Origin: Ruditapes philippinarum
Taxonomy: Eukaryota
Reading direction: 5' to 3'
NCBI RefSeq assembly: GCF_026571515.1
Contig: NW_026863984.1
Location: 124,001-188,000 of the forward strand
Length of the DNA: 64,000 nt
Each line of letters begins with the position of its first letter. The stretch's first letter is position 1. This document shows, piece after piece, positions 15,001 to 60,000 of this stretch. Made by a program: the position numbers.

Positions 15001-18000
15001 TATATAGAAACACATGAATCTTTTCATTTATACTGATGTTTATATTTACTCCCAAATAGCGAAACAAATTGTTACTTTAAATCAAATACTTCAAAATCAG
15101 TTCAGCCTTTTCTTAGTTATAAGAGGAAAAGGTGTAAAATTTCAATCGAGCTTTGTGCCCTAAAAGTTTTATCTCATAAATTTCATTAATTGCATCTATA
15201 TCATAGAATACGAAATGTTTTGTAAGTAATTTTAAGCTAGGTTGAACCGAGTTTTGGATTTAAAAAAAGCAAAAAAAGACGTCAGTAAATGGTTGTTTCA
15301 TCTATTTATAATATCCAAACATCCTATCTAAGACATAAATCATGATGAAAATAAGTGCAAGCAATTTATTTCTATAAAGGTTATTATACCGCATTCACCG
15401 GCCTGTGAAATTAAAATCAAAATTGTTTCAAAAGTTCATATCGGGTACACAGTCGACCTAAAATGTTTCAATTTTATTTATATTTCTATTTGTCAAGTTC
15501 AATTATTAACCGATGAGCTTGGTCGCGTATACACATGTTTTTCTTTATTGAAAACTTACCCTGTTCTGGTATTGCTTTGGTTCAAGTCATATTCAAGGAT
15601 TTGCAATTTATATGGCGAAGAGTAGTGGTTTTTAGACTTATTAAGATCAAGACAGTATGTTATCTAATACGACACCAGTACAAGTTTTTTGTGGAATATA
15701 CAATGTAAGGGGTATATGAGCGAATTATGTACACAACTGAAAACAAAAACCAGTTTTGTGTCACCTAATATAGAACTAATACTGCAAATTTGCACCAGTA
15801 AAAAAAAATAGCCAAACATAGACAATGATAATAAATTTATGCAATTTACTTTATGTTCTTTGTTCTGAAACACATGCTCTTGAAAAAAAAATTATTCACT
15901 TGCGGAAGATACAATCTTTATAAGAACGGTTTAATATTCTAATTGCCTACAAATAGTACAAATAGTAGAACATTGATTGATATATAAAATCATAATTCTT
16001 AATGTTGTTGTCGATGTAGTAACTCTTAATGTAATACCGTGTTTATTATTACATGTATTACATAAGAAAATAATGACTGACAAATTATTGTTAGAATTTT
16101 TACGTTCATATGTATATTTCACCGTACACTGCCACTTTTTTACAGGCATGCGGTTTTGTATACTTGTCATAGCCCTATGTGGCATATACGCCACAGTTGA
16201 ATGCTTACCAAAGGCTGTATATGACAGCAAAAGCGATGGGAATCATCTAGATCTAATCAGGGAGATTGAAGACGCTTTGGAAGAGAGCAAGAGACACAAT
16301 CGTCCCGCTAACATCCACTCAAATCATGGCTCAGCCACAAGGGTAAACAGTAAGCAATCGAAAGCCATTCAACAAGACACGAATGATCCCCCATATGCCA
16401 ACGTCGAGAAGAGCTATATTGAAGTAGCAAGAAAAGTTGCGGATGCGTTCATGGAAGATAGAAAGACCAAGAGCCAAGGTTTGTAGAAATTATTATAAAT
16501 AAAATAAAAAAGTGTTGTTATAACAATCAATTAGTAATTTAGAAAGTGATGTTTTAACGTAAAAATAACAGGGAAATGTTTATTAACCATGTTATAAATT
16601 TGCTATAATGGGATTTTTGTATTGTCTTCATTTCCTATTCACATTTTACGGCTTCGAATGTCGAGATATTTTTCGATGATTTTAAAAATTCATTATAAAT
16701 AAAATACAGTCATGTTTTTATTCTTTTTTGTCACAATATATTCAATTGATTTTTAAGGTTGTACTGCTACGTTAACCAGTGCTTAATATTCAAGCGCTTT
16801 AAGTAAAATATCGAGGCGTTTGCGCATAATAAAACATGCCCTCAGCATTTTTTGTAGTGTCTTTAAAAACTGCATGACGGTCAATTTTTATGACATTTAC
16901 CAATTACCATTAACCAATTTAAAAATCATACAATTATTTGTTGTGCATATCTGGTCAATACAATGTATTTGGTAAAAAGATTTTGTCGCCTTAAATGTTT
17001 TGATCTTTGCTTACACCTACTTTAAAGTTGAATAAGTTAATGGTATCAACAAATTAATGATATCTTATTCCGAACATATTTATTAAATTTAATTGATATA
17101 GTGTCTCATTAAATTGTTAAAATTTATGGTGACTTGGGTTTGAAAACATTAGACCGATTGACCGCGACATTTTCTGATTATATTTGAAAGAATGAAAGCA
17201 AGTATTAAATGGAATGAGCAGGAGAAAGAAATATATCATAACGTATGAGTAACGTCGTAGACAGCTGTGTTGTTCATATCTGCACTATCAAAATTTAATA
17301 TGAAAGAAATTATTAAAGTGGCATTATGCACATTTAAGGGTAAACAGTGAGTGAGCAGATAAAAGACAAAATAAGTTTTTATATTGCCATAATTCCTTTC
17401 AGTTATAATTTGTCTGAAACGTTTAGTTTGTAAAAGGAGTAGGACAGTCTTTTGATATTTAAGACAGATTTTAAATGTTATCCAAAACATTTTCCAAAGT
17501 AAACTGTTGGTCAAACACCATTTTAACAGTCACTCTTTTGAAATAAAATGTCAATTCAGCTCATATTGACTATGAAAGTATGGACATAATGTCACTTTAA
17601 CTCTAATATTACTTGAACCATAGCATACGTCAACTTTGAGGTACGTTTGTGGGGAGACGATTGTTTTAATAATATTGTAATCAACTTTACTGTTCTTTTT
17701 GTCCCTTTACTATGATATTACAAGATTGTCCAGCTAGATGACGTTTTTGCTGTTTAGAAACTTACTTGAAAAGCTGGTACTTTAAGAATGAAGATATAAC
17801 TCGGCTAATACTTTTACTAAGTCAGCCTGATCCGTCTTATTAACCATTACTAGGCACAAAACAAAAGTAATAACATCCTCTGCAGTATATAATCAGTCGT
17901 TGCTGTAAATCCATGACGAGCTTCAAAATACCAAGCTGTCCCTAATATTGATAATGAACAGCTCATAGAACACACTTGATAAAAATTTAACAGGTTAAGT

Positions 18001-57000: not shown

Positions 57001-60000
57001 ACTTAATTGATAAGAATATACTCTAAAGTTACTGTAAAAATTTTCATTAACTTTGTTACAGGGTAAGCTGTAGTCGAATTCGTACACGAACAGGTGGAGA
57101 TTGGGACTTAAGCAGTTGGTAGACTGAACTATATTGATAAATCTCGAAATTGATTTTTGACAGACGGAATATCAAGATTCGATTCGAAATTGGACTTACA
57201 CAGCTGTTCGACTGAAAAAAAGATTTAACTCTCGCTTAGTTTTGGACTTAAATACACCCATTCAATATCAGCAGACTAATTTAAATATGTATAATACTTA
57301 TTTTCATTTGCAAAAAAAAAAAAAATGAAAAAAAATTCTACTTTTATATGTTTCGATATAACGTTGACATCTTAACAAACGAGTATCTTTACTCTTAATT
57401 GAATATATATAAAAAAATGATTTTCCAAGACAATGTGTGTGGAAGATCTTGCTGCATTTTTGATGACTTTTTCTTATATATTGTGCTATTTTATTCTATA
57501 TCTTGAATGTATTCACTACGCTCAATACAATCGCATTAAACAACTTAAAAGCAAAATATGGGTTTCTTAAATTTGATCAACGAGTGTTGCTTGTTGTGTG
57601 TTCATTATAAAAAAGCTGTAACAGATATCAGTTTAAAAAAAAAGGTTCATTCAATATTTAAGTTTATACAGAAATAATATCAAGATATTACAGCAAATAA
57701 CATATATCACCTATAGATATGAATTCACGATTTCATCTTCATAAATTCACGATTTCACCTTCACGAAATGATGAATTCAAGGAGCTTGAATCGTGAATTC
57801 GTGAAGTTGAATTCATGAAGCTGAAATCGTGAGTTCGTGAAGTTAAAATCGTGAATTCATGAAGCGTGAATTTGTGAATTCCGTATTTTAGAAACGTTAA
57901 TTCAAGAGGTCAAAATTGTGATTGAATTGTAGAAATGAAATCGGGAACTTATGGAGTTGAAATGTTCCAATCGGTCGTTCGTAAGTTACTGCATAAATAG
58001 TTATTGTCTATGGTGGCATATTTCTGCCACCAGATAACCTGATAACAAACTAGTTAATTAAGAGGTTAACTAGTTACGTAACTAGTTAACCTGATAATTA
58101 ACTAGTTAATTATCAGGTAAACTAGTTACGTAACTAGTTAATTTTTTCAATAAAGAAAAGATCATAACGGGAAATAAATGCATGTTTGTGCCCGCAACTG
58201 CCATCTCTTATTGTCAGCTTAATATTAAGAGGTTAACTAGTTACGTAACTAGTTAACCTGATAATTAACTAGTTAATTAATAGGTTAACTAGTTACATAA
58301 ATACCTAACTAGTTAACCTAATAATTAACTAGTTAATTATCAAGTTAACTAGTTACCTAACTAGTTAACTTGATAATTAACTAGTTAATTATTAGGTTAA
58401 CTAGTTAGGTATAGGTAACTAGTTAACCTGATAATTAACTAGTTAATTATTAGGTTAACTAGTTAGGTATTTGCGTAACTAGTTAACCTGATAATTAACT
58501 AGTTAATTAAGAGGTTAACTAGTTAGGTATAGGTAACTAGTTAACCTATTAATTAACTAGTTAATTAAGATGTTAACTAGTTACGTAACTAGTTAACCTC
58601 TTAATTTTAAGATGATAATATAATAAAAGGATGGCAGTTGCAGGCACTAACATGCATTTATTTCCCGTTATGATCTTTTCTTTATTGAAAAAATTTACTA
58701 GTAACGTAACTAGTTAACCTCTTAATTAACTAGTTAATTATCAGGTTATCTGGTGGCAGAAATATGCCACCATAATTGTCGATCCGTGTATCCAATAAAT
58801 AAATATAGCATTCCTAAATAGTACGATCATTACAATGTTAAGTTGTTAAATCGTAGGCAGTTGTCGTGGCCGAGTGGTTAAGGCGATGGACTAGAAATCC
58901 ATTGGGATCTTCCCGCGCAGGTTCGAATCCTGCCGACAACGATTTTTTGCCTTATTGTTTTGCCGCCTTTAACAAGAGTAAAAAACCCATTTGTCAACAA
59001 GTTATACGAAGGATGTTTAGAAAAATTTAAGAAGTTAAATACATCGGAGCGATGTTTACTGACATTTATAAAATCTTTATGTAGCGTCTAACTAAAATAG
59101 CCTTTGACGCACGCGCATGTTTGTCCGGATAGACGTTTAAAGAAATGGTGAAATAAGCGCTACTTTATAAAGAAAGTTTATGCAAAAAAGATTGTCGGAA
59201 ATTTTCGAATTTACGTATTCTCATTGAATGAAAATCTAAGTCAAAGACGTATCATTAAACAAACGCTTTTGAGAACAGTTTTTGTTTTTGTGAAATAGAT
59301 TGTCCAGAAATTTCAAATTTATTCATTTTGATTGGTCAAAGATTAATTCATAATTGAACAAAAATAACAAACATGAACTTTGATTTATCAAAACATTTCA
59401 GGTTTCGTTACATTAATACTTGGAGAGTTTAAATTTATTATATTAGTTAAGTATGAATATGATGTTTCGTAACTAGTTAACCTCTTAATTAACTAAATAG
59501 TTATCAGGTTAACTAGTTACGTAACTAGTTAACCTCTTAATTAACTAGTAAGTTATCAGATTATCTGGTGGCAGAAATATGCCACCATATGAAATGTTAA
59601 ACACATTTGTGTTTGAACGTATTGGCCAGTATAAAATATGGTTGCATATTTCTGCCACCAGATAACCTGATAACTAACTACTTAATTAAGAGGTTAACGT
59701 GATACATAACTAGTTAACCTGATAACTTACTAGTTAATTAAGAGATTAACTAGTTACGTAACTAGTTAACCTGATACCTAACTAGTTAATTAAGAGGTTA
59801 ACTAGTTACGTAACTAGTTAACCTCTTAATTAAGTAGTAAGTTATATGGTTATCTGGTGGCAGAAATATGCCACCATAATAATACTTAGATTTTTGGCGA
59901 TTTTTTTTTCTGTCATAAATGTTCTACTCATTCAACATAACTACAACTTAATTTTGGTATCTACTACATTAAATACTGCACCATTACTACTTTTCTTAAA

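What the first reader, a model, noticed from the sequence alone, without database searches (positions are those of the whole stretch)
16148..57122. Tandem pair of co-divergent atypical peroxidases: a coordinated active-site remodelling shared by both paralogs
Seen in both intact genes: (i) F-M-Q-F-I-D-H-D instead of W/F-G-Q-F-x-D-H-D; (ii) R-A-N-V-H instead of R-x-x-E; (iii) Y-R-Y-H instead of F-R-F-G-H; (iv) L-N-I-M-R-G-R-E-W-G instead of L-N-I-Q-R-G-R-D-H-G. Distal Q289/H293/R427, proximal H524/N612 and the Ca2+ loop are retained (gene A numbering). Synonymous sites in several exons are heavily diverged, so these changes were kept under selection for a long time. From memory of the families, (i), (iii) and (iv) shift toward alpha-dioxygenase/LDS-like states (non-Gly before the distal Gln, YRxH, RxRE or RxW). 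Inference: a distinct subfamily with non-standard chemistry that automated pipelines would simply label peroxidasin-like or chorion peroxidase-like.
[Added by the scan's program, not by the reader: the finding's places include an assembly gap (unread letters, written N; its length is only estimated) at 52595 to 52860. Whether the letters on both sides are continuous or in frame is not known: test that first.]
Basis: partly seen in the sequence, partly recalled or inferred. Interest (0 to 1): 0.75.

Follow-up and report, generated by a model that had tools for sequence, protein, structure and literature searches.

The report
Clam peroxidase pair with remodelled haem pocket
Two neighbouring clam-type genes encode secreted haem peroxidases of an uncharacterised bivalve-only subfamily in which several of the most conserved haem-pocket residues are changed, and one helix now resembles that of plant fatty-acid dioxygenases.

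Summary
Two intact, same-strand, 15-exon genes (A 16148-32178, B 40391-57122) encode 767- and 768-residue animal haem peroxidases, and both carry all four motif changes at the stated residues. The N gap lies inside intron 12 of gene B and interrupts no coding frame.

The changes are not parallel events in two paralogs. They are inherited. The same states occur in 10 of 10 longer relatives from Mercenaria, Mactra, Dreissena and one unnamed contig. These form a clade (support 100/100) on a long stem, nested among ordinary bivalve peroxidases.

Loss of the haem-linking Glu is also common outside the clade. The Gly-to-Met change, the Gly deletion before the proximal His and the His-to-Trp change are specific to the clade.

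Overall sequence and predicted fold are myeloperoxidase/lactoperoxidase-like. The proximal helix alone matches plant alpha-dioxygenase best, with YRYH aligned on YRMH.

Both copies are under purifying selection (dN/dS 0.16). The two exons carrying motifs (i) and (ii) have been homogenised between the copies (dS 0.16-0.17). Gene A is expressed as a spliced transcript. No transcript was found for gene B.

The most likely function is a secreted peroxidase with at most one haem ester link. Dioxygenase-like chemistry is not excluded but is unlikely.

The parts
16148..16478 (+). Gene A exon 1: ATG, probable signal peptide, start of a helical N-terminal extension
   Evidence: P0008 residues 1-109 map here; no Pfam family
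18039..18168 (+). Gene A exon 2 (N-terminal extension)
18901..19139 (+). Gene A exon 3; its end is the start of the peroxidase domain
   Evidence: PF03098 positions 1-33, E 1e-05
20079..20279 (+). Gene A exon 4: distal motif FMQFIDHD at 20237-20260 (Q289, D292, H293, D294)
   Evidence: PF03098 positions 37-88; 94% identical to gene B, dS 0.16
20844..20895 (+). Gene A exon 5 (16 whole codons, CC motif)
   Evidence: too short for a Pfam scan
21262..21365 (+). Gene A exon 6
21822..21929 (+). Gene A exon 7: Ca-binding loop TSYLDAS at 21854-21874
   Evidence: PF03098 positions 144-174
22927..23031 (+). Gene A exon 8
   Evidence: matched by P0001
23439..23613 (+). Gene A exon 9: RANVH at 23447-23461 (distal Arg427; Val430 replaces the haem-linking Glu)
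   Evidence: PF03098 E 1.1e-24; aligned to myeloperoxidase RSSEM; dS 0.17 against gene B
25252..25371 (+). Gene A exon 10; ends ..AFSMAY plus two bases of Arg522
   Evidence: junction confirmed by P0001; no Pfam or PDB hit alone
27379..27573 (+). Gene A exon 11; starts with the last base of Arg522, then Y523 and H524 (proximal His)
   Evidence: only 8 hits among 1.84 billion representatives
27901..28116 (+). Gene A exon 12: LNIMRGREWG at 27971-28000 (N612)
   Evidence: PF03098 E 9e-18; 100% match in P0001
28860..29023 (+). Gene A exon 13
   Evidence: PF03098 positions 445-493
30082..30184 (+). Gene A exon 14
32118..32178 (+). Gene A exon 15 with stop TAG
40391..40724 (+). Gene B exon 1 (ATG, probable signal peptide)
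41477..41606 (+). Gene B exon 2
42302..42540 (+). Gene B exon 3
   Evidence: PF03098 positions 1-33
43539..43739 (+). Gene B exon 4: FMQFIDHD at 43697-43720
44187..44238 (+). Gene B exon 5
44754..44857 (+). Gene B exon 6
45949..46056 (+). Gene B exon 7 (Ca loop)
47082..47186 (+). Gene B exon 8
47589..47763 (+). Gene B exon 9: RANVH at 47597-47611
   Evidence: PF03098 E 3.3e-24
49292..49411 (+). Gene B exon 10 (..AFSMAY plus two bases of Arg)
50611..50805 (+). Gene B exon 11 (last base of Arg, then YHQLMP; proximal His)
52268..52483 (+). Gene B exon 12: LNIMRGREWG at 52338-52367
   Evidence: PF03098 E 3.2e-17
52595..52860 (.). Assembly gap (N) inside intron 12 of gene B (intron 52484-53019)
   Evidence: both flanking exons keep the phase seen in gene A; the frames close on both sides of the gap
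53020..53183 (+). Gene B exon 13
   Evidence: PF03098 E 5.8e-17
53760..53862 (+). Gene B exon 14
57062..57122 (+). Gene B exon 15 with stop TAG

Best explanation
Genes A and B are a tandem duplicate pair. Each encodes a secreted protein made of a probable signal peptide, a helical N-terminal extension of about 190-230 residues with no known family, and a haem peroxidase domain of the myeloperoxidase/lactoperoxidase type.

They belong to a subfamily seen so far only in heterodont bivalves (Mercenaria, Mactra, Dreissena and unnamed contigs). The subfamily arose inside the ordinary bivalve peroxidases. On its stem the haem pocket was remodelled:
- Met replaces the near-invariant Gly before the distal Gln.
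- Val replaces the Glu that makes the second haem ester bond. Many bivalve relatives had already lost this Glu.
- Two one-residue deletions re-register the proximal helix to F-x3-Y-R-x-H-x-L-x-P, the register of plant alpha-dioxygenase.
- Gln becomes Met/Glu/Val/Ile and His becomes Trp in the N..R.R..G motif.

The parts needed to activate H2O2 are kept: distal His, Arg and Gln, proximal His with its Asn partner, the Ca site and, in these two genes, the ester-forming Asp. They evolve under purifying selection. Both paralogs carry the changes because they inherited them.

Inferred mechanism (not shown): a secreted haem peroxidase whose haem is held by at most one ester bond. It is therefore probably a poor halogenating enzyme and geared to one-electron oxidation of organic substrates, such as phenolic cross-linking of extracellular material, or defence. 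The Tyr three residues before the proximal His could carry a protein radical.
For: Family and fold:
- PF03098 in 7 of 13 scanned exons of each gene, collinear.
- P0008, the closest named relative (54-56% identical to A and B summed over exons), scores 235 bits to myeloperoxidase.
- Its AlphaFold model (pLDDT 87.5, pTM 0.86) matches myeloperoxidase and lactoperoxidase at TM 0.83-0.90. Alpha-dioxygenase gives 0.66-0.71 and COX-2 gives 0.61-0.64.

Subfamily:
- Clade support 100/100, stem 0.84. The all-bivalve group has 100/97. The sister group of ordinary Potamilus and Dreissena peroxidases has 92/92. The quick trees agree.
- Scores drop from 479 to 350 bits after the last clade member.
- Exon 11 finds only 8 proteins among 1.84 billion representatives.

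Motifs:
- 10 of 10 clade rows share the changed states.
- Of 143 columns conserved in the outgroup, 102 are kept and 19 are switched.

Selection and expression:
- dN/dS between A and B is 0.16, summed over exons.
- Gene A has a spliced transcript, P0001.

Canonical signatures are taken from PMC4420034 (passages read).
Against: - No biochemical data exist for any member. Searches found nothing on this subfamily.
- The loss of Glu, the further loss of the Asp link in 3 of 10 clade members (Dreissena: Ser or Thr), the re-registered proximal helix and the His-to-Trp change could abolish normal haem binding or change the chemistry altogether.
- The alpha-dioxygenase-like helix and the raised alpha-dioxygenase and COX scores point away from a plain peroxidase.
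- The fold evidence comes from the Mercenaria protein, not from the window's own products.
- The signal peptide is judged by eye.
- No transcript was found for gene B (only 31 candidates were scored, so this is weak evidence).
- The trees contained no COX, alpha-dioxygenase or linoleate diol synthase rows.
Confidence: 0.65

Rival explanations
1. The subfamily has converged on the tyrosyl-radical oxygenase chemistry of cyclooxygenase, alpha-dioxygenase and linoleate diol synthase. Compound I would oxidise Tyr521, three residues before the proximal His. The radical would then abstract hydrogen from a fatty acid or another substrate, and O2 would be inserted.
For: - The only solved-structure hits of the 39-residue proximal-helix piece of gene A's product (taken from P0001) are Arabidopsis and rice alpha-dioxygenase. 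The alignments are ungapped, with Y, R, H, L and P in register (E 0.23 and 0.82).
- A Dreissena clade member gives the same ranking. An ordinary control gives lactoperoxidase or peroxinectin A in 12 of 12 hits.
- P0008 scores 67 bits to alpha-dioxygenase from the proximal helix onward, and 67 bits to COX-1. Two ordinary bivalve peroxidases score 31-42 and 33-44 bits.
- Tyr379/His382 in rice alpha-dioxygenase and Tyr385/His388 in COX have the same spacing (PMC8720084 and PMC13049297, passages read).
Against: - The E-values of the short pieces are not significant on their own.
- The Tyr is Phe in 4 of 12 other clade sequences (P0005, P0013, P0015, P0018). The catalytic Tyr is reported as conserved in all alpha-dioxygenases analysed (PMC8720084).
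- Tyr or Phe at the homologous position is also usual in ordinary peroxidases (A[FY]R[FY]GH).
- Whole-protein similarity, predicted fold and tree are of the myeloperoxidase type.
- The distal Arg, the ester Asp and the Ca site typical of true peroxidases are kept.
- No fatty-acid channel or carboxylate-binding residues could be examined.
Confidence: 0.12
2. The domain is catalytically degenerate and serves a non-enzymatic role such as adhesion, a matrix component or a binding module. From memory, this has been proposed for some peroxinectins and for the peroxidase-like domain of dual oxidases.
For: - Several of the most conserved haem-pocket residues are changed.
- Both ester-forming residues are lost in the three Dreissena members.
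- There is a long stem branch.
- There is an added helical N-terminal extension of unknown family.
Against: - Distal His, Arg and Gln, proximal His and its Asn partner are kept in 10 of 10 clade members and in both window genes.
- 102 of 143 outgroup-conserved columns are kept.
- dN/dS is 0.16.
- The predicted domain is confident through the proximal region (pLDDT 97 for residues 501-520 of P0008).
Confidence: 0.13
3. The four changes arose or spread in parallel in the two paralogs, through co-divergence under a shared new selection or through gene conversion between them. This is what the first reader's title implies.
For: Exons 4 and 9, which carry motifs (i) and (ii), have dS of only 0.16-0.17, while most other exons are near or above 1. 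About 12 of 80 synonymous sites changed in these two exons, against 246 of 396 elsewhere (Fisher p 3e-15). Sequence has therefore been exchanged between A and B.
Against: - The same states occur in 10 of 10 clade proteins from Mercenaria, Mactra, Dreissena and an unnamed contig.
- A and B are closer to each other (561 of 753 residues) than to any of those proteins (at most 56%).
- The changes therefore predate the A/B duplication. Conversion only copied what both already had.
Confidence: 0.04

Closest known systems
Myeloperoxidase, lactoperoxidase and eosinophil peroxidase (chordate haem peroxidases), and invertebrate or Dictyostelium peroxinectin-type peroxidases
   Same: - PF03098 domain.
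- Best whole-protein and fold matches for the clade member P0008: 235 bits to myeloperoxidase, 212 to lactoperoxidase, 164 to peroxinectin A; TM 0.83-0.90.
- Distal Gln, His and Arg, the ester-forming Asp, the Ca loop and the proximal His-Asn pair are retained.
   Different: - Gly before the distal Gln is Met.
- The ester-forming Glu is Val, and the next residue (Met243 in myeloperoxidase by my recall of its numbering) is His.
- The proximal helix is two residues shorter and lacks the Gly of FRFGH.
- QRGRDHG is MRGREWG.
- There is an extra helical N-terminal extension.
Ordinary bivalve peroxidases, e.g. Dreissena P0025/P0044, Potamilus P0038/P0031 and Pecten P0022, labelled myeloperoxidase-like, pxn-2-like or peroxidase-like
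   Same: - Nearest phylogenetic neighbours: one all-bivalve group, 100/97.
- Many already have Val for the Glu (12 listed proteins).
- The sister group already has the first of the two proximal-helix deletions (FG-IA[FY]RMGH).
   Different: - They keep WGQ or FGQ, the Gly before the proximal His, and QRGRDHG.
- They score higher to lactoperoxidase and myeloperoxidase (279-314 bits) and lower to alpha-dioxygenase (31-42 bits).
Plant fatty-acid alpha-dioxygenase (PDB 4hhr, 4kvj); also cyclooxygenase and fungal linoleate dioxygenases
   Same: - The register and several residues of the proximal helix..F-x3-Y-R-x-H-x-L-x-P.
- A non-Gly hydrophobic residue before the distal Gln (I152-Q153 in rice; PMC8720084, passage read).
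- No Glu ester link. An R.RE motif in place of R.RD is recalled from memory only and was not checked.
   Different: - Overall similarity is far lower (67 against 235 bits; TM 0.66-0.71 against 0.83-0.90).
- The clade is nested in bivalve peroxidases.
- The clade keeps the distal Arg, the ester Asp and the Ca loop.
- The Tyr is not invariant in the clade (Phe in 4 of 12).
Peroxidasin (the label that pipelines give to several members)
   Same: The peroxidase domain family only.
   Different: No leucine-rich-repeat, immunoglobulin or von Willebrand C domain was found in any scanned exon. Pfam lists only PF03098 for the clade proteins. That domain architecture is recalled from general knowledge.

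Membership tests
Peroxidase-cyclooxygenase superfamily (Pfam PF03098, 'animal haem peroxidase') | Significant match to the PF03098 profile | tested here: met
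   7 of 13 scanned exons of each gene hit the profile collinearly. The best E-values are 1.1e-24 (A exon 9) and 3.3e-24 (B exon 9). Exons 10 and 11 do not hit on their own.
Peroxidase-cyclooxygenase superfamily (Pfam PF03098) | Mainly helical fold shared with solved members | tested here: met
   Tested on the Mercenaria relative P0008, not on the window's own product. The model has pLDDT 87.5. Foldseek gives TM 0.83-0.90 to myeloperoxidase and lactoperoxidase.
Classical two-ester-link peroxidases (families 1-3 of PMC4420034) | Distal signature X-G-Q-X-X-D-H-D | tested here: not met
   Both genes read F-M-Q-F-I-D-H-D. Q, D, H and D are kept, but Gly is Met. Gly is found in 104 of 106 outgroup rows.
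Classical two-ester-link peroxidases (families 1-3 of PMC4420034) | Signature X-R-X-X-E-X, with the Glu forming the second haem ester bond | tested here: not met
   R-A-N-V-H aligns to myeloperoxidase R-S-S-E-M. Val is found in 10 of 10 clade rows. Glu is found in 85 of 107 outgroup rows.
Classical two-ester-link peroxidases (families 1-3 of PMC4420034) | Proximal His with its Asn partner, and the Ca-binding motif | tested here: met
   His524, Asn612 and the loop TSYLDAS are present in both genes. Whether His524 ligates the iron, given the shortened helix, cannot be tested here.
Heterodont-bivalve subfamily defined here (P0004, P0008, P0010-P0016, P0018) | All of: Met or Leu before the distal Gln; Val for Glu; no Gly before the proximal His; Trp in RGR[ED]WG | tested here: met
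   Both window genes and 10 of 10 clade rows meet this. P0001, which equals gene A exons 8-15, falls inside the clade.
Cyclooxygenase / alpha-dioxygenase / linoleate dioxygenase (family 4) | Catalytic Tyr three residues before the proximal His, conserved throughout the family | tested here: inconclusive
   Y521-x-x-H524 is present in A and B. It is Tyr in 8 and Phe in 4 of 12 other clade sequences. The spacing is documented for rice alpha-dioxygenase and COX (PMC8720084 and PMC13049297, passages read).
Cyclooxygenase / alpha-dioxygenase / linoleate dioxygenase (family 4) | Closest overall relatives are family 4 members | tested here: not met
   P0008 scores 67 bits to alpha-dioxygenase and COX-1 against 235 bits to myeloperoxidase. 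TM is 0.61-0.71 against 0.83-0.90. The clade is nested in bivalve peroxidases. No family 4 sequence could be put in the tree.
Cyclooxygenase / alpha-dioxygenase / linoleate dioxygenase (family 4) | Fatty-acid channel and carboxylate-binding residues (His311 and Arg559 in rice alpha-dioxygenase) | not testable with these tools
   No residue-level alignment to alpha-dioxygenase outside the proximal helix could be seen, and no model coordinates were available.
Peroxidasin | Leucine-rich repeats, immunoglobulin domains and a von Willebrand C domain flanking the peroxidase domain (recalled) | tested here: not met
   No such Pfam hits in any of the 26 scanned exon peptides. Only PF03098 is listed for the clade proteins.

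The most novel reading that the evidence does not exclude
A secreted enzyme with a myeloperoxidase-type fold has independently rebuilt its proximal helix into the Tyr-Arg-x-His arrangement of alpha-dioxygenase and cyclooxygenase. It would use a tyrosyl radical to oxygenate lipids or other substrates in clams. This would be a second origin of that chemistry within the superfamily, and a candidate source of oxylipins in bivalves.
Probability: 0.1. Interest if true: 0.85.

Novelty: new variant of a known kind. Interest (0 to 1): 0.5.

Why it matters
The haem peroxidases of this superfamily are defined by a handful of near-invariant pocket residues. This clade changes several of them at once yet stays under purifying selection. 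That makes it a natural experiment on three questions:
- what the Glu ester link does;
- what the Gly next to the distal Gln does;
- what the geometry of the proximal helix does.

The local convergence on the alpha-dioxygenase helix gives a concrete, testable lead on how peroxidase scaffolds move towards radical oxygenase chemistry.

In practice, it shows that labels such as 'peroxidasin-like', 'mlt-7-like' or 'myeloperoxidase-like' in clam genomes hide a separate subfamily. That subfamily should be tracked on its own in expression and shell- or matrix-proteome studies.

Tried and rejected
- Exons 10 and 11 searched separately against solved structures gave nothing useful: one chance hit at E 6.4, and no hit. 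The motif is split by the intron.
Sources and names of the unnamed relatives stayed unknown.
- The exon-wise search for longer relatives of A exon 12 returned only P0001, out of 33 candidates scored. The same search for B exon 12 returned P0001, P0010 and a 139-residue fragment, out of 31 candidates. It gave no transcript for gene B. This is weak evidence either way.
- The ESM Atlas search of the N-terminal exon gave scores of at most 0.85 with recognition below the threshold, so there is no lead.
- No third peroxidase copy or pseudo-exon lies elsewhere in the window. None of 1386 tblastn hits of the stored proteins falls outside the two genes.
- Ordinary gene conversion with long tracts was rejected as the cause of the low dS of exons 4 and 9. 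Flanking intron identity is 0.61-0.71, no better than random pairs at 0.73. Exon-confined conversion remains the working idea.
- Literature searches found no paper on this subfamily (one search was poorly aimed). only listed insect peroxinectin and prostaglandin papers. I saw the listing only and did not use them.
- Not done: the prokaryote-only genome-contig scan, which would not bear on this question. The metagenome and viral collections and the papers' supplements were closed.

Full report
WHAT IS THERE

The window is AT-rich (24-38% G+C) and carries two genes on the + strand in tandem. I aligned region A against region B and read the conserved blocks with their flanks. This gave 15 coding exons for each gene.
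- Gene A runs from 16148 to 32178. Gene B runs from 40391 to 57122. They lie 8.2 kb apart.
- All introns are GT-AG and the phases are identical in the two genes.
- Exon lengths are identical except exon 1 (331 against 334 nt).
- The products are 767 and 768 residues long.

Seven of the 13 scanned exon peptides of each gene match Pfam PF03098 in collinear order. Exons 10 and 11, which surround the proximal histidine, do not match on their own. Every search with window sequence was done exon by exon.

INDEPENDENT SUPPORT FOR THE MODELS

The search for longer proteins containing exon 12 of gene A returned one protein, P0001. It has 376 residues, comes from a 1313-nt contig and has no name.
- P0001 matches exons 8-15 of gene A at 365 of 371 whole-codon residues.
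- Exactly one residue, the split codon, lies between blocks at each of the seven junctions.
- An intron-free contig of that kind is best explained as a spliced transcript.
- Gene A is therefore expressed, and the exon 10/11 junction that creates Y-R-Y-H is real.

The Mercenaria protein P0008 maps collinearly over all 15 exons of gene B (residues 8-756 of 758) and over 13 of the 15 exons of gene A (residues 1-737; no hit passed my filter for exons 8 and 15). No exon appears to be missing. No transcript-like protein was found for gene B. That search scored only 31 candidates, so the absence is weak evidence.

THE GAP

N 52595-52860 lies inside intron 12 of gene B (52484-53019).
- Exon 12 ends 111 nt before the gap, with a GTATGT donor.
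- Exon 13 starts 159 nt after the gap, behind a pyrimidine tract and an AG.
- Both exons have the same phase and form the same split Ala codon as in gene A. In gene A the two exons are joined directly in P0001.
- The exon 12 frame closes 32 nt into the intron. The exon 13 frame is closed between the gap and the exon.

No coding sequence is expected in the gap. Whether the assembly is correctly joined across it cannot be shown here.

THE OBSERVATION

- (i) F-M-Q-F-I-D-H-D.
- (ii) R-A-N-V-H. It aligns to myeloperoxidase R-S-S-E-M, so the ester-forming Glu is Val.
- (iii) A-Y-R-Y-H, across the exon 10/11 junction.
- (iv) L-N-I-M-R-G-R-E-W-G.

The distal Gln, His and Arg, the ester-forming Asp, the Ca loop, the proximal His and its Asn partner are retained. 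The canonical signatures X-G-Q-X-X-D-H-D and X-R-X-X-E-X, and the roles of Asp and Glu in the two haem ester bonds, are as stated in PMC4420034 (passages read).

RELATIVES

Exon 11 was scored against 1.84 billion representative proteins and found only 8 with E up to 0.001. One of them is P0008, which NCBI names 'peroxidasin homolog pxn-2-like' of Mercenaria mercenaria.

A search with P0008 listed 120 proteins. The ten best after P0008 itself include:
- two more Mercenaria proteins on the same contig;
- three from Mactra antiquata;
- three from Dreissena polymorpha;
- one from an unnamed contig.

Scores then fall from 479 to 350 bits.

In an alignment of 120 longer proteins, with the exon peptides added as separate fragments, the ten clade proteins share the states of the window genes:
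- Met or Leu before the distal Gln in 10 of 10 (Gly in 104 of 106 others).
- Val for Glu in 10 of 10 (Glu in 85 of 107 others).
- No Gly before the proximal His in 10 of 10 (Gly in 101 of 105 others; one barnacle protein also lacks it).
- Trp in RGR[ED]WG in 10 of 10 (His in 102 of 107 others; none of them shows Trp).

Of 143 columns conserved in the outgroup, the clade keeps 102 and has switched 19.

Two qualifications apply.
- Val for Glu also occurs in 12 listed proteins outside the clade, mostly from bivalves.
- The three Dreissena members have also lost the ester-forming Asp, which is Ser or Thr there.

PHYLOGENY

Three trees were built.
- A 58-row quick tree with LG+G4.
- A 38-row tree with a site-heterogeneous model.
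- The finished careful search on the 38 rows.

The careful search gives the clade 100/100 support on a stem of 0.84 changes per column. It sits inside an all-bivalve group (100/97). It is sister to ordinary peroxidases of Potamilus and Dreissena (92/92), which already carry the first of the two proximal-helix deletions.

P0001, which stands for gene A exons 8-15, falls inside the clade. Gene B could not be placed in a tree without joining exons. Summed over exons:
- A and B share 561 of 753 residues.
- Each is 54-56% identical to Mercenaria P0008 and P0010, and less to every other protein.

The A/B duplication is therefore younger than the remodelling, and the two genes inherited the motif set. 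The trees contain no cyclooxygenase, alpha-dioxygenase or linoleate diol synthase, because I had no way to fetch those sequences.

SELECTION AND EXCHANGE BETWEEN THE COPIES

Nei-Gojobori counts per exon, summed without joining, give dS 0.96, dN 0.158 and dN/dS 0.16. Most exons are saturated at synonymous sites.

Exons 4 and 9 are exceptions, with dS 0.16 and 0.17. About 12 of 80 synonymous sites changed in these two exons, against 246 of 396 in the rest (Fisher p 3e-15). The first half of exon 4 is not conserved between genera, so constraint on the protein does not explain this. Recent homogenisation between A and B does.

The flanking introns are no more alike than random pairs (0.61-0.71 against 0.73). 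The exchange therefore appears confined to the exons, and I have no full explanation for that.

The long-selection claim drawn from synonymous divergence holds for the exons of motifs (iii) and (iv), with dS of 0.69, 1.42 and 0.48. It does not hold for motifs (i) and (ii). Long retention of all four follows instead from their conservation across genera.

WHAT THE PROTEINS RESEMBLE

Whole-protein comparison of P0008 with solved structures:
- myeloperoxidase: 235 bits;
- lactoperoxidase: 212 bits;
- peroxinectin A: 164 bits;
- dual oxidase 1: 96 bits;
- alpha-dioxygenase: 68 and 67 bits, aligned from the proximal helix to near the C-terminus;
- COX-1: 67 bits.

Two ordinary bivalve peroxidases score higher to the peroxidases and lower to the oxygenases:
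- 279 and 314 bits to their best peroxidase hit (myeloperoxidase for P0025, lactoperoxidase for P0031);
- 41 bits (P0025) and 42 bits (P0031) to rice alpha-dioxygenase, and 31 bits (P0031) to the Arabidopsis enzyme, which is absent from P0025's best 60 hits;
- 44 and 35 bits to their best COX hit.

An AlphaFold model of P0008 was built with a 65-row alignment (pLDDT 87.5, pTM 0.86). Its structural matches are:
- myeloperoxidase and lactoperoxidase: TM 0.83-0.90;
- alpha-dioxygenase: TM 0.66-0.71;
- COX-2: TM 0.61-0.64.

The scaffold is therefore of the myeloperoxidase type.

The proximal helix is the exception. A 39-residue piece of gene A's product, taken from P0001, has only two solved relatives at E up to 10: Arabidopsis and rice alpha-dioxygenase (E 0.23 and 0.82). 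Both align without gaps, so that ..F-S-M-A-Y-R-Y-H-N-L-M-P lies on ..F-T-S-V-Y-R-M-H-S-L-L-P.
- The equivalent piece of a Dreissena clade member again ranks the two alpha-dioxygenases first (E 0.51 and 0.71), ahead of lactoperoxidase (E 2).
- The equivalent piece of an ordinary bivalve peroxidase finds peroxinectin A and lactoperoxidases in 12 of 12 hits.
- These E-values are not significant one by one. The consistent ranking, in 2 of 2 clade pieces against 0 of 1 control, is what counts.

In rice alpha-dioxygenase the residues are Y379 (the catalytic tyrosyl radical site), R380, M381 and H382 (the proximal ligand). The residue before the distal Gln153 is Ile152 (PMC8720084, passages read). 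In cyclooxygenase the pair is Tyr385 and His388 (PMC13049297, passages read). Because the clade is nested among ordinary bivalve peroxidases, this likeness is best read as local convergence.

HOW IT MOST LIKELY WORKS

Shown:
- a PF03098 domain with the H2O2-activating residues intact;
- purifying selection;
- expression of gene A.

Inferred:
- Secretion. The N-terminus is hydrophobic in both genes and there is a helix at residues 2-18 of P0008. No signal-peptide predictor was run.
- Haem held by at most one ester bond through Asp292.
- Therefore weak halogenating power. This rests on recalled work on Glu variants of myeloperoxidase, which I did not check here.
- A bias towards one-electron oxidation of organic donors outside the cell.

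The i-3 Tyr could host a radical. But it is Phe in 4 of 12 other clade sequences, and Tyr or Phe is also usual at the homologous position of ordinary peroxidases. I therefore give dioxygenase-like chemistry about one chance in ten. Loss of catalysis is made unlikely by the retained catalytic residues.

NOVELTY

The proteins are already in databases under automatic names. I found no paper on the subfamily. One Mercenaria study mentions 'three peroxidase genes' higher in haemolymph haemocytes without naming them in the text (PMC8902148, one passage read; supplements closed).

I rate this a new variant of a known kind. It is a lineage-restricted subfamily with a defined, conserved remodelling of the haem pocket.

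WHAT STAYED UNCHECKED

- Metagenome and viral collections (closed).
- Supplements of papers (closed).
- A tree that includes dioxygenases.
- Any whole-protein search or fold of the window's own products.

Noticed in passing
window 20079-20279 / 43539-43739 and 23439-23613 / 47589-47763: Exons 4 and 9 are 94% identical between the two genes (dS 0.16-0.17), while most other exons are saturated. The similarity stops at the exon edges: flanking introns are no more alike than random pairs. Exon-confined gene conversion is my working idea, and it is not fully explained.
   Followed up: partly
window 54462-55176 and 55562-56277 (last intron of gene B): A large inverted repeat in three blocks, 91-97% complementary. 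A 153-nt tandem array (55195-55637) overlaps its centre. It is probably a transposon-like insertion, and it accounts for much of why this intron is longer than its counterpart in gene A.
   Followed up: partly
window 58860-58941 (+): A tRNA-Ser gene (anticodon AGA; Rfam 64.7 bits) downstream of gene B. It sits between 52/58-nt tandem arrays at 58035-58606 and 59464-59838.
   Followed up: no
window 5942-6175 (-), 29434-29675, 31289-31428, 31966-32055, 42944-43097, 45350-45591, 60054-60296 (-), 62140-62364: An interspersed repeat with a recurring pseudo-ORF, found in introns of both genes and in the flanks. A second repeat lies at 19319-19502 and 28196-28386 (gene A introns) and at 49685-49876 (gene B intron).
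   Followed up: no
gene A exons 1-3 (16148-19139), gene B exons 1-3 (40391-42540): An N-terminal extension of about 190-230 residues before the peroxidase domain. It is shared with Mercenaria P0008 and P0010, and is predicted as a series of helices at moderate confidence in P0008. It has no Pfam family and no useful Atlas lead. Shorter clade members (616-663 residues) lack most of it.
   Followed up: partly
window 23459-23461 and 47609-47611 (His431 of RANVH): The residue after the lost Glu is His in both genes and in 9 of 10 clade proteins. It aligns with the Met that follows the Glu in myeloperoxidase. From memory, that Met forms the third haem link in myeloperoxidase. What a His does there is unknown.
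   Followed up: no
proteins P0004, P0014, P0018 (Dreissena polymorpha): These clade members have Ser or Thr in place of the ester-forming Asp (FISHD, FITHD). They should have no covalent haem link at all, yet they keep the distal His, Arg and Gln and the proximal His.
   Followed up: no
window 1010-1137 and 13959-14097: Two further N gaps upstream of gene A, outside both genes. No long open frame or further peroxidase piece was seen in the flanks.
   Followed up: partly
window 51844-52246 and 30431-30782: A TCATA-rich array of about 400 nt lies directly upstream of gene B exon 12, close to the assembly gap. A 145-nt tandem array lies in the last intron of gene A.
   Followed up: no
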